From positions 925,579 to 989,578 of the forward strand of contig CAVRCG010000004.1 in assembly GCA_963719525.1 (NCBI GenBank): a stretch of DNA of 64,000 nucleotides, given 5' to 3'. The notes beneath the pieces were generated by a model. That model saw only the letters and a list, made by a program, of their open reading frames with translations, made no database searches and was not told the DNA's origin. Made by a program: the position numbers and the translations under genes. Numbering within the stretch: the stretch's first letter is position 1; every line of letters starts with the position of its first letter. Shown here piece after piece: positions 23,019 through 23,230 of the stretch. The DNA comes from an uncultured Cytophagales bacterium. Lineage in GTDB: Bacteria; Bacteroidota; Bacteroidia; Cytophagales; Bernardetiaceae.

Positions 23019-23230
23019 ACAACAGAAGTACGAACAAAAATTATATTATATTCACAACAATCCAGTACAAGGAATATGGGAATTAGCAGAATCGTTGGAT
23101 AAATGTCCTTATAGTTCATACAATTTCTATGAATTTGATGATACAATTACATATCCTTTTCTGACTCATTATATGGAAGAGTTTGAGCGAAAATCTGTTT
23201 TTTTTGATTTGCGTTTTTTGGTTTTGTAGA
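23019..23230 (+). pseudogene. C-terminal remnant of an IS200/IS605-type Y1 (RAYT-like) transposase
   Basis: translation …YEQKLYYIHNNPVQGIWELAESLDKCPYSSYNFYEF… matches the conserved Y-(I/L)-x-x-N-P-V C-terminal block and YPWSS-like tail of Y1 transposases; preceded by in-frame stops, no N-terminal HUH domain. Confidence 0.45.

What the first reader, a model, noticed from the sequence alone, without database searches (positions are those of the whole stretch)
23019..23230. Y1 (IS200/RAYT-like) transposase C-terminal remnant next to REP-like palindromes
The + frame translation …YEQKLYYIHNNPVQGIWELAESLDKCPYSSYNF… reproduces the conserved C-terminal block of IS200/IS605 TnpA and REP-associated tyrosine transposases (catalytic-region Y-I-x-x-N-P-V and a YPWSS-like tail). 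No N-terminal HUH domain is present, and stop codons precede it. RAYTs are the enzymes thought to mobilise REP elements, and this window carries at least two REP-like palindrome families. The remnant may be a decayed RAYT, possibly disrupted by the adjacent IS110.
Basis: partly seen in the sequence, partly recalled or inferred. Interest (0 to 1): 0.55.

Follow-up and report, generated by a model that had tools for sequence, protein, structure and literature searches.

The report
Decayed RAYT transposase gene remnant
This is the dead last third of a known Bacteroidota-type REP-associated tyrosine transposase gene, still bracketed by its own hairpin repeats, and the neighbouring IS110 element did not break the gene but inserted, apparently RNA-guided, into the hairpin repeat just downstream of it; all of this is an ordinary example of known biology.

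Summary
Observation confirmed. Window 23032-23187 (+) encodes the last 52 codons of a RAYT/TnpA_REP transposase. It keeps the YIHNNP tyrosine motif and the SS tail. It is 49/52 identical to the C-terminus of an intact 182-aa protein of Bernardetia sp. ABR2-2B. The family matches TnpA_REP subclass 2.6 (Quentin 2018), the Bacteroidetes type.

The copy is dead. The 5' UTR and codons 1-130, including the HUH motif, are deleted. There is no start codon, and the stop codon has mutated (TAA to CGA).

It keeps the cis elements that bracket intact copies: an inverted half-REP upstream (23004-23023) and a 45-nt REP hairpin downstream (23259-23300, continuing at 24597).

The IS110 idea is wrong. The IS (23301-24596) lies downstream of the gene's former stop codon, inside the 3' arm of that REP, between GACCAAC and AACGGC. 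An uninterrupted site exists in Bernardetia. The IS's predicted bridge RNA carries guides AAGACCAAC and CCGUUG that match the two sides of the insertion point. In four related IS copies inserted in related REPs, the left guide changes with the target.

Verdict: a decayed member of a known family plus a known IS110-into-REP behaviour, in a little-studied clade. Low to moderate interest.

The parts
23004..23023 (-). Inverted half-REP (GCGTTATGATGATCAACAAC), the gene-proximal arm of the upstream REP.
   Evidence: It matches the reverse complement of the REP-A 5' arm at about 91% over 22 nt. It aligns with GCCGTTACGATGACCAACAAC upstream of the intact genes in L013 and L024. In L024 the upstream REP is likewise only a half. 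The window sequence no longer folds into a stable hairpin (z=+0.45).
23024..23031 (+). Deletion junction (ACAGAAGTAC | GAACAAAAA).
   Evidence: Alignment to L024 shows that the equivalent of L024 ~5954-6390 is missing. That segment holds the 5' UTR, the start codon and codons 1-130, including the HUH motif.
23032..23187 (+). RAYT/TnpA_REP pseudogene remnant, codons 131-182 (EQKLYYIHNNPVQGIWELAESLDKCPYSSYNFYEFDDTITYPFLTHYMEEFE).
   Evidence: Identity is 49/52 to P0180 (Bernardetia sp. ABR2-2B). The nearly invariant Tyr at column Y155 of the alignment is Cys here.
23047..23064 (+). Y motif YIHNNP, with the catalytic-tyrosine helix of HUH-Y1 enzymes.
   Evidence: Invariant columns Y136, H138, N140 and P141 in alignment A1. 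It matches the subclass 2.6 signature YIH[QN]NP.
23188..23258 (+). Former stop codon (TAA changed to CGA at 23188-23190) and former 3' UTR. The frame reads through to TAG at 23227-23229.
   Evidence: Alignment to L024 and L013. Coordinates.
23259..23300 (+). Downstream cognate REP hairpin ('REP-A'): 5' arm, loop and first 7 nt of the 3' arm (GTTGTTGGTCATCGTAACGGCAAGCCGAAACTAAAGACCAAC).
   Evidence: It is identical to the family consensus. The hairpin is supported by covariation: 97.8% of cells paired, 4 pairs with compensatory changes, and 0 of 500 shuffles as good. The DNA fold is -11.1 kcal/mol.
23301..24596 (+). IS110-family insertion sequence (1296 bp). It starts CTTTATATT and ends CATAGAATTC, and has no inverted repeats. 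At most one C is shared with the target.
   Evidence: The transposase scores 158 bits against NF033542 (cut-off 140). The ends are conserved in relatives L019-L023. The empty site is seen in L024.
23349..23536 (+). Predicted bridge RNA in the IS left end: a 5' stem-loop (23353-23391), a target-binding loop and a donor-binding loop.
   Evidence: Fold z=-2.77. The consensus fold of 4 related ISs has two internal loops and 5 pairs with compensatory changes. The architecture matches that described for IS621 (PMC11208160).
23413..23421 (+). Left target guide AAGACCAAC.
   Evidence: It is identical to the 9 nt of top strand immediately left of the insertion point. Relatives inserted after AACACCAAC carry AACACCAAC or AACACCGAC at this position. 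The 9-mer occurred in 268 of 200,000 shuffles, and together with the right guide in 0.
23440..23445 (+). Right target guide CCGTTG.
   Evidence: It is the reverse complement of C|AACGG across the right junction. L019 has CCGTGG, matching its own junction C|CACGG.
23578..24582 (+). IS110-family transposase CDS (334 aa).
   Evidence: P0052, 98% identical, lies on a 3.80-Mb contig; three other members of its 7-member 90% cluster lie on a contig of the same length.
24597..24610 (+). Remainder of the REP-A 3' arm (AAC) followed by GGC and a T-run (AACGGCTTTTTTTT).
   Evidence: It is colinear with L024 6659-6709 at 94%.
24628..24674 (+). REP 3'-flank half-sites GGAAGACCAACAAGAACGCA and GGGAACACCAATAAGAACGCAG.
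   Evidence: They recur about 40 nt downstream of many REP-A copies in other genomes. They resemble the right half of the L017 REP CTTGTTGGTGAAAACACCAACAAG.

Best explanation
Window 23004-24674 is an inactivated 'REPtron': a REP-associated tyrosine transposase gene with its flanking REP hairpins. The gene belongs to the Bacteroidota type of RAYT, TnpA_REP subclass 2.6.

Intact relatives encode a ~180-aa HUH-Y1 single-strand DNA nuclease. The gene is bracketed by copies of a 45-nt imperfect hairpin in inverted orientation. By analogy with E. coli TnpA_REP and IS200/IS605 TnpA, the enzyme would bind the folded hairpin on single-stranded DNA and cleave and rejoin at its foot. That would spread REP singlets and doublets around the genome.

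In this window a deletion of about 440 nt removed the 5' UTR and codons 1-130, including the HUH metal-binding motif. Only codons 131-182 remain, with no start codon and a mutated stop codon. The fragment cannot make an active enzyme.

Both cis elements survive: half of the upstream REP and the complete downstream REP.

Separately, an IS110-family element inserted into the 3' arm of the downstream REP. Its bridge RNA appears to have directed this: the target-binding loop pairs with AAGACCAAC on the left of the site and C-AACGG on the right.

Shown here: homology, the deletion geometry, the REP bracketing, the hairpin covariation, the exact IS boundaries with an empty site, and the guide/target matches with covariation of the left guide (and, in one relative, the right guide).

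Inferred: the biochemical activity of the intact enzyme, that REPs here are or were mobilised by it, that the predicted bridge RNA is made and used, and whether the deletion happened at this site.
For: Homology:
- phmmer E=1.2e-8 to full-length P0003.
- Full-length hits carry HUH and the Y motif.
- They hit Pfam Y1_Tnp (P0003: 25.9 bits, cut-off 23) and NCBIfam REP_Tyr_transpos at 78 bits, E~5e-22.
- 49/52 identity to P0180 of Bernardetia sp. ABR2-2B.
- The signature NHIH / WQ / YIHNNP / SS at ~180 aa equals subclass 2.6 of Quentin et al. 2018.

REP bracketing of intact genes:
- L013: inverted REP at 5608-5564 and direct REP at 6287-6332.
- L024: half-REP at 5909-5931 and REP at 6617-6661.
- L017: a different palindrome with the same TTGTTGGT/ACCAACAA stem, inverted upstream and direct downstream.

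REP is a dispersed family:
- 15 loci in Cytophagales MAGs, Bernardetia sp. OM2101 and a Flexibacter MAG from one exact 23-mer.
- 30 copies aligned.
- Covariation in the stem.
- Four more superfamily members in this window share CCAACAACGGC, with one mismatch in one of them.

Deletion and stop-codon loss.

IS110:
- Family score.
- Insertion between GACCAAC and AACGGC.
- Empty site.
- Guides and shuffle control.
- Four related ISs at the same position of related REPs; in all four the left guide carries the same G-to-C change as the target, and in L019 the right guide also changes with the target.
- Conserved two-loop RNA fold.
- The published rule is that the 5' side of the loop pairs with the bottom strand over 8-9 nt and the 3' side pairs with the top strand over 4-7 nt, and that IS621 targets REPs.
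Against: - The fragment alone hits no Pfam or NCBIfam model.
- Full-length relatives fall 2 bits short of the NF047646 cut-off.
- pN/pS between the remnant and intact or remnant relatives is low (0.08-0.17). That is what a selected coding sequence shows. I read it as divergence accumulated while the genes were intact, followed by recent truncation, but this is an inference.
- The remnant is not syntenic with the intact gene of Bernardetia sp. ABR2-2B, so in-situ decay of a single ancestral locus is not demonstrated.
- The donor-binding-loop guides match the IS ends only with a 1-nt bulge (LDG) and over 4 nt (RDG).
- The shared 'core' appears to be a single C rather than a dinucleotide.
- No expression or activity data exist.
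Confidence: 0.9

Rival explanations
1. The remnant did not decay at this site. It arrived as an already internally deleted, non-autonomous REP-(delta RAYT)-REP unit, a long REPIN/MITE-like element. An intact RAYT elsewhere in the genome mobilised it in trans.
For: - The flanks are not syntenic with the intact locus of the closest relative.
- Related genomes hold deletion derivatives with other breakpoints. L001 keeps 48 codons, fused to another REP copy.
- L012 has three near-identical REP doublets that keep only the last RAYT codons, TTTGAATAA. Deleted units of that kind therefore do multiply.
- Low pN/pS fits recent derivation from an active gene.
Against: - No second copy with this particular junction was seen, although only 64 kb of this genome is available.
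- The upstream element is only a half-REP that no longer folds. That would make a poor substrate.
- REPtrons are reported not to move as units (PMC6006769).
Confidence: 0.3
2. The adjacent IS110 element truncated the RAYT.
For: Only the proximity of the two features.
Against: - The IS lies 3' of the remnant's C-terminus, whereas the missing part is the 5' two-thirds.
- Removing 23301-24596 restores an uninterrupted REP that is colinear with L024.
- The IS guides match the REP, not the RAYT coding sequence.
Confidence: 0.02
3. The C-terminal fragment is kept as a functional small protein or as a cis-acting sequence, rather than being junk.
For: - pN/pS of 0.08-0.17, even between two independently truncated copies (window versus L001).
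- Many short C-terminal-only hits in the exhaustive search.
Against: - No start codon in frame before 23095.
- The stop codon is lost.
- A nearly invariant Tyr is replaced by Cys.
- The L012 doublets dispense with all but about 4 codons.
- The short hits mostly come from short metagenome contigs.
- The catalytic Tyr helix alone cannot act without the HUH core. This rests on established HUH-Y1 enzymology, not on a test here.
Confidence: 0.03
4. The similarity is a chance match to a short NPV motif.
For: No Pfam or NCBIfam hit for the fragment alone.
Against: - E=1.2e-8 against 1.84 billion proteins.
- 88.8% DNA identity over 269 nt to an intact gene's 3' end and flank.
Confidence: 0.005

Closest known systems
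TnpA_REP / RAYT subclass 2.6 (Quentin et al. 2018, PMC6006769), equal to RAYT group 5 of Bertels et al. 2017 (PMC5581495)
   Same: Intact relatives are about 179-182 aa. They have the HUH motif NH[LIV]H (MPNHIHLL), the WQ motif, the Y motif YIH[QN]NP, a C-terminal extension with SS, a Bacteroidota host, and flanking 'atypical secondary structures' whose copies occur elsewhere in the genome.
   Different: The window copy is a pseudogene that retains only codons 131-182. The cognate hairpin, a 45-nt stem with a nested mini-hairpin ending CAACAACGGC, is described here for Bernardetiaceae. I could not check whether the paper's Fig. 7 shows the same structure.
E. coli REPtron (TnpA_REP/YafM with REP/BIME; PDB 4ER8)
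   Same: A single HUH-Y1 gene is bracketed by inverted REPs, and REPs are dispersed in intergenic regions.
   Different: There is no 5' GTAG tetranucleotide at the hairpin foot. The conserved foot is 3' CAACAACGGC. The protein subclass is different (2.2 in E. coli). Activity was not tested here.
REPINs of Pseudomonas fluorescens (Bertels & Rainey 2011, PMC3116915)
   Same: REP doublets in inverted orientation are present in related genomes: three copies in L012, and also in L003, L011, L015 and L021.
   Different: The L012 doublets still contain the last codons and 3' UTR of the RAYT gene, so they look like internal-deletion derivatives of the REPtron itself. The window unit keeps 52 codons and was not shown to be mobile.
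IS621 (E. coli) and ISPpu9/ISPpu10 (P. putida): IS110-family elements that insert into REPs using a bridge RNA (PMC11208160, PMC12288879)
   Same: DEDD/IS110 transposase. Long non-coding left end that folds into two internal loops. A 9-nt left guide identical to the top strand and a 6-nt right guide complementary to it. The target lies in a REP. There are no inverted repeats.
   Different: The host is Cytophagales and the REP family is different. The overlap between left and right guides appears to be one C, not a CT dinucleotide. The function of the RNA was not tested.
IS200/IS605 TnpA (class 1 Y1 transposases)
   Same: HUH-Y1 fold family, with hairpin ends recognised on single-stranded DNA.
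   Different: Relatives score only 17 bits against NF033573 (cut-off 55). The Y motif is Y-x3-NP, not Y-x3-Q. The flanking hairpins are inverted rather than direct.

Membership tests
RAYT / TnpA_REP (subclass 2.6) | HUH motif NH[LIV]H in the N-terminal core | tested here: not met
   It is absent from the window because codons 1-130 are deleted. It is present as MPNHIHLL in the intact relatives L013, P0180 and P0003. The window copy is therefore a remnant of a member, not a functional member.
RAYT / TnpA_REP (subclass 2.6) | Y motif YIH[QN]NP and C-terminal extension with conserved SS | tested here: met
   YIHNNP lies at 23047-23064 and PYSSY at about 23107-23121. These columns are invariant in alignment A1. 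The signature is taken from PMC6006769.
RAYT / TnpA_REP (subclass 2.6) | Significant match to the Y1_Tnp and REP_Tyr_transpos profiles | tested here: inconclusive
   The fragment alone gives no hit. Full-length homologues: PF01797 up to 25.9 bits (cut-off 23), with several just under the cut-off. NF047646 gives 78.0-78.5 bits against a cut-off of 80.
RAYT / TnpA_REP (subclass 2.6) | Gene flanked by cognate hairpins (REPs) in inverted orientation | tested here: met
   L013, L024 and L017. In the window, the half-REP at 23004-23023 (-) and the REP at 23259-23300/24597-24599 (+).
RAYT / TnpA_REP (subclass 2.6) | The same hairpin dispersed in many extragenic copies in the genome | tested here: met
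   At least 12 exact 23-mer copies in MAG MFD03250.bin.2.91 and 3 in Bernardetia sp. OM2101. Four further CCAACAACGGC-type hairpins lie in this 64-kb window, where 0.17 such matches are expected by chance. The whole source genome was not available.
RAYT / TnpA_REP (subclass 2.6) | One or few gene copies per genome, with vertical inheritance | not testable with these tools
The remnant's flanks are not syntenic with the intact locus in ABR2-2B.
RAYT / TnpA_REP (subclass 2.6) | Cleavage and rejoining of REP single-stranded DNA | not testable with these tools
   This needs a biochemical assay.
IS200/IS605 TnpA (autonomous IS) | Match to the IS200 transposase model, and direct (not inverted) subterminal hairpins | tested here: not met
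   NF033573 scores 17.1 bits against a cut-off of 55 for P0003. The flanking hairpins are inverted.
IS110 family with bridge RNA (the adjacent element) | DEDD IS110 transposase with Transposase_20 domain | tested here: met
   NF033542 scores 158.4 bits (cut-off 140). Homologues carry PF01548 and PF02371.
IS110 family with bridge RNA (the adjacent element) | Non-coding end that folds into two internal loops, with guides matching the target and donor flanks | tested here: met
   Target loop: a 9-nt and a 6-nt match abutting the junction on the expected strands, with 0 of 200,000 shuffles showing both. The left guide changes with the target in the related ISs, and the right guide does so in L019. 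The fold is shown. The donor-loop match is weaker: ATAGAAT(G)TC and AAGG.
IS110 family with bridge RNA (the adjacent element) | Precise insertion, shown by an empty site | tested here: met
   With 23301-24596 removed, the window is colinear with L024 6391-6709.
REPIN (mobile REP doublet) | Two REPs in inverted orientation, present as a repeated unit | tested here: inconclusive
   Repeated doublets occur in L012 (three copies) and elsewhere. The window unit has inverted REP parts 235 nt apart, but only one copy was seen and its upstream arm is incomplete.

The most novel reading that the evidence does not exclude
The locus and its relatives could be snapshots of how mobile REP doublets arise. 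On this reading, a subclass-2.6 REPtron loses its transposase gene by internal deletion in steps. The window keeps 52 codons, L001 keeps 48, and the amplified doublets in L012 keep about 4. The resulting non-autonomous units would then spread. In parallel, an IS110 lineage would track the REP subtypes by retuning its bridge-RNA left guide (AAGACCAAC versus AACACCAAC). That would be a three-layer nested parasitism of RAYT, REP and IS110 in Bernardetiaceae.
Probability: 0.3. Interest if true: 0.5.

Novelty: new member of a known kind. Interest (0 to 1): 0.28.

Why it matters
The finding mainly helps annotation. The fragment should be labelled a RAYT pseudogene. The 45-nt hairpin should be labelled its cognate REP. 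The IS should be given exact ends (23301-24596) and a predicted bridge RNA.

It adds a clear Cytophagales example of two known behaviours: REPtron decay, and IS110 insertion into REPs with matching guides. The natural guide/target covariation across five insertions could be useful to people who catalogue bridge-RNA specificities.

The deletion derivatives that still carry RAYT 3' codons give modest support to the idea that REP doublets descend from the ends of a RAYT/IS200-like unit. None of this changes current understanding.

Tried and rejected
- Pfam and NCBIfam scans of the 74-aa fragment gave no hits because it is too short.
- A PDB sequence search gave only noise, E>0.5.
- The word-indexed protein search with the fragment found only one near-identical remnant. 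The exhaustive search was needed.
- Rfam found nothing at gathering score in the whole window, and only noise in 22800-24900. The REP and bridge RNA match no curated RNA family.
- A metagenome scan with a 28-base remnant pattern found nothing.
- Exact-protein look-ups of the window's IS110 transposase and of its 98% relatives P0052, P0175 and P0176 were not on record. The source genome and its other IS copies could not be reached.
- I first read 22959-23026 as a full but decayed inverted REP. Comparison with L024 shows that intact loci can also have only the proximal half, so I now call it a half-REP.
- I considered a shorter pre-insertion target (GACCAACGGC with a duplicated CAAC or an AC core). 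The empty site GACCAACAACGGC in L024 rejects it.
- I considered AGAATTCA at 23384-23391 as a donor guide. It is rejected because it forms the 3' half of the 5' stem-loop.
- A synteny test against the Bernardetia ABR2-2B locus was negative.
- No structure prediction was run because it would add nothing for a 52-residue fragment.

Full report
**1. The observation**

The + frame that contains the reported peptide reads *RYDDQQQKYEQKLYYIHNNPVQGIWELAESLDKCPYSSYNFYEFDDTITYPFLTHYMEEFERKSVFFDLRFLVL*. An in-frame TAG precedes it at 23002-23004, and there is no start codon before a TTG at 23095.

The fragment alone hits nothing in Pfam, NCBIfam or the PDB. The word-indexed protein search found only one near-identical 80-aa fragment, P0001.

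The exhaustive phmmer search of 1.84 billion representatives found 51 proteins at E<=1e-3. The full-length hits (161-193 aa; P0003 at E=1.2e-8) carry VIMPNHIHLL, the HUH motif, about 75 residues upstream of YIHNNPV. They hit Pfam Y1_Tnp around its cut-off. They hit NCBIfam REP_Tyr_transpos at 78 bits, E~5e-22, against a cut-off of 80. They score only 17 bits against the IS200 model.

The similarity is real, and the fragment is the C-terminal part of a Y1/HUH transposase of the RAYT kind.

**2. Which family**

The signature is ~180 aa, NHIH, FWQ, YIHNNP, a C-terminal 'YSS' and a Bacteroidota host. It matches TnpA_REP subclass 2.6 of Quentin et al. 2018. [quoted passage not shown] 2017 (PMC6006769).

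A search with an intact relative returns 2404 proteins at E<=1e-10. The named hits among the 120 listed are mostly Cytophagales (Bernardetia, Microscilla, Pontibacter, Rufibacter, Arcicella). They are annotated 'transposase' or 'REP element-mobilizing transposase RayT'.

The closest named protein is P0180 of Bernardetia sp. ABR2-2B. It is identical to the remnant at 49 of 52 positions. One of the three differences replaces a nearly invariant Tyr with Cys.

**3. Anatomy of intact copies**

A 23-nt piece of a palindrome just downstream of the remnant was used to scan one genome per species. It hit 15 loci in uncultured Cytophagales MAGs, Bernardetia sp. OM2101 and a Flexibacter MAG.

- **L013** holds an intact 182-aa gene. 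It is bracketed by the 45-nt hairpin GTTGTTGGTCATCGTAACGGCAAGCCGAAACTAAAGACCAACAAC in inverted orientation: 5608-5564 on the minus strand and 6287-6332 on the plus strand.
- **L024**, the Bernardetia ABR2-2B locus, has the same downstream hairpin. Upstream it has only the gene-proximal half of the inverted copy.
- **L017**, which encodes the more distant P0003, is bracketed by a different palindrome, CTTGTTGGTGAAAACACCAACAAG. It shares the TTGTTGGT/ACCAACAA stem and is again inverted upstream and direct downstream.

Across 21 distinct copies the hairpin is 97.8% paired. Four pairs show compensatory changes, for example GT/AC to AC/GT in the inner stem. None of 500 shuffles did as well, and paired cells fall to 20-42% when the 3' partners are slid by 1-3 columns.

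This is the classical REP-RAYT-REP ('REPtron') arrangement.

**4. Anatomy in the window**

Alignment to L024 and L013 gives the following layout.

| Coordinates | Feature |
|---|---|
| 23004-23023 | Inverted half-REP (GCGTTATGATGATCAACAAC) |
| 23024-23031 | Junction |
| 23032-23187 | Codons 131-182 |
| 23188-23190 | Former stop codon, TAA changed to CGA |
| 23188-23258 | Former 3' UTR, read through to TAG at 23227-23229 |
| 23259-23300 | REP hairpin, perfect up to GACCAAC |

The segment equivalent to L024 ~5954-6390 is missing. It held the 5' UTR, the start codon and codons 1-130 with the HUH motif. tblastn finds no other piece of the gene anywhere in the 64 kb.

The copy is therefore dead. 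It is an internally deleted REPtron, not a 3' fragment cut off by something inserted into it.

**5. The IS110 element**

The hairpin breaks off at 23300. It resumes at 24597 with AACGGCTTTTTTTT. Between these points lies a 1296-bp element that starts CTTTATATT and ends CATAGAATTC. It encodes a 334-aa IS110-family transposase, which scores 158 bits against NF033542 (cut-off 140).

With the element removed in silico, the window is colinear with the uninterrupted Bernardetia sequence through GACCAAC|AACGGCTTTTTTTTAATG and beyond.

The IS therefore inserted into the 3' arm of the REP, 113 nt downstream of the remnant's last codon. It has nothing to do with the loss of the 5' part of the gene.

**6. 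Why the IS is there**

The 277-nt non-coding left end folds into a 5' stem-loop followed by two stems that each enclose an internal loop (z=-2.77).

In the first loop:
- The 5' side contains AAGACCAAC (23413-23421). It is identical to the nine top-strand bases immediately left of the insertion point.
- The 3' side contains CCGTTG (23440-23445). It is the reverse complement of C|AACGG across the right junction.

In 200,000 shuffles of the left end, the 9-mer appeared 268 times and both guides together never.

This layout is the one reported for IS621 bridge RNAs: the 5' side of the loop pairs with the bottom strand over 8-9 nt, the 3' side pairs with the top strand over 4-7 nt, and natural targets lie in REPs (PMC11208160).

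Four related ISs (73-78% transposase identity; L019, L020, L021/L022, L023) are all inserted at the same position of related hairpins (...AACACCAAC|AACGG or |CACGG). Their guides compare as follows:
- The left guide reads AACACCAAC in L020, L021 and L023, and AACACCGAC in L019.
- L019's right guide CCGTGG matches its own junction C|CACGG.
- L020's right guide CCGTTG matches exactly; L023's (CCCTTG) has one mismatch and L021's (CGTTTG) matches only in part.

The left guide therefore covaries with the target across all five insertions, and the right guide does so in L019.

A consensus fold of four of these left ends keeps both internal loops and has five pairs with compensatory changes.

The second loop matches the IS ends less cleanly: ATAGAAT(G)TC against ATAGAATTC, and AAGG against CCTT. 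The guides overlap by a single C rather than a dinucleotide. I leave those two points open.

**7. The REP family in this window and elsewhere**

Besides the interrupted copy, the window holds four other hairpins that share the 3' foot CCAACAACGGC, one of them with one mismatch:
- 3087-3115 (-)
- 12115-12145 (-)
- 12250-12290 (-)
- 26048-26090 (+)

There were 4 matches against 0.17 expected by chance. The copy at 26048 is of the subtype targeted by the related ISs (GTTGGTGTCGCTWCGCTAAAAYACCAACAACGGC).

In other genomes the REPs often occur as inverted doublets. In L012, three near-identical doublets still contain TTTGAATAA, the last RAYT codons and stop, together with the RAYT 3' UTR. They therefore look like complete internal-deletion derivatives of a REPtron that have multiplied.

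L001 shows yet another derivative. It keeps 48 codons, fused at the 5' side to the end of another REP copy.

**8. Age and origin of the remnant**

pN/pS over the 48-52 shared codons is:
- 0.17 for the window versus intact L013
- 0.14 for L001 versus L013
- 0.08 for the window versus L001, with pS up to 0.75

Most divergence was therefore laid down under protein-level selection. The simplest reading is that the truncations are recent and independent.

The flanks of the remnant are ftsH upstream and, beyond the IS, a minus-strand gene downstream. They share nothing with the flanks of the intact Bernardetia ABR2-2B gene, which are an aminotransferase and rpsL-rpsG-fusA.

I cannot say whether the gene decayed at this site or arrived already deleted. 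I give the latter about 0.3.

**9. Comparison with known systems and novelty**

Everything here fits known categories:
- A pseudogene of a described RAYT subclass.
- Its cognate REPs.
- An IS110-family element that targets REPs through a bridge RNA, as shown for IS621 and reported for ISPpu9 and ISPpu10.

What is new is only the instance. It comprises the specific 45-nt REP of Bernardetiaceae-like Cytophagales, the deletion series that links REPtron to REP doublets, and a natural set of five insertions in which the left guide covaries with the target.

I rate it a new member of a known kind, with low to moderate interest.

**10. Limits**

The source genome beyond the 64 kb could not be reached. 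The existence of an intact RAYT, the REP copy number and other IS copies in the same genome all remain untested. No activity or expression claim is tested.

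Noticed in passing
window 21560-21600 (ftsH, ORFs 20793-21668 and 21671-22855): ftsH is split by a single-base frameshift inside the Walker A motif. One frame reads ...[12 protein letters not shown]|LPVLVK... and the next reads ...[23 protein letters not shown].... This is either a sequencing error or a pseudogene of an essential gene.
   Followed up: partly
window 23349-23536: Predicted IS110 bridge RNA with a target-binding loop programmed for the REP 3' arm. The left guide changes with the target in four related ISs, and the right guide does so in L019.
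   Followed up: yes
window 3087-3115(-), 12115-12145(-), 12250-12290(-), 26048-26090(+): Further small hairpins of the same REP superfamily. All end in CCAACAACGGC (CCGACAACGGC in one). They have different loops, for example GTTGGTG-GGGA-CACCAAC.
   Followed up: partly
window 891-977; 31243-31316 and 41746-41778; 50603-50728: Three other palindromic repeat families that are unrelated to this RAYT's REP. One is a long inverted repeat, AGCTGCGTAGCTGCG.../...CGCAGCTACGCAGCT. One is ACAGACTTCCTAGTCTGT-type palindromes, with 6 hits in the window and also hits in L002, L006 and L011. One is two copies of GTAGGGACAATGCACGCATTGT. They may be cognate to other RAYT classes.
   Followed up: no
window 26199-28295 (-): A two-gene pair matching the PADLOC candidate defence system HEC-01. 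HEC-01A is an AAA_15/AAA_21 ATPase (473 aa, E=8e-100). HEC-01B is a DUF4276 protein (222 aa, E=2e-76). The pair lies just beyond a REP copy and about 1.6 kb from the IS.
   Followed up: partly
window 43248-44780; 48955-51773; 16993-18306: Repeats that were not examined: four ~160-nt units spaced about 456 nt apart at 61-71% identity; two ~300-nt segments duplicated at 96-97% identity about 1.86 kb apart; and a 300-nt pair at 78% identity 1014 nt apart.
   Followed up: no
L001 328-765 (ENA metagenome contig): A second RAYT remnant of 48 codons is flanked by two direct copies of the long REP unit. The called 80-aa 'protein' P0001 starts inside the REP and is probably a gene-calling artefact.
   Followed up: partly
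L012 5978-7420 (Cytophagales MAG MFD03250.bin.2.91): Three near-identical REP doublets lie within 1.4 kb, plus a partial one. Each retains the last RAYT codons and the 3' UTR.
   Followed up: partly
window 23301/24596 junctions and L019-L023 junctions: In all five insertions the left junction reads ...AC|CTTTA and the right junction reads ...ATTC|(A/C)ACGG. The base shared by donor and target appears to be a single C rather than the CT-type dinucleotide core described for IS621.
   Followed up: partly
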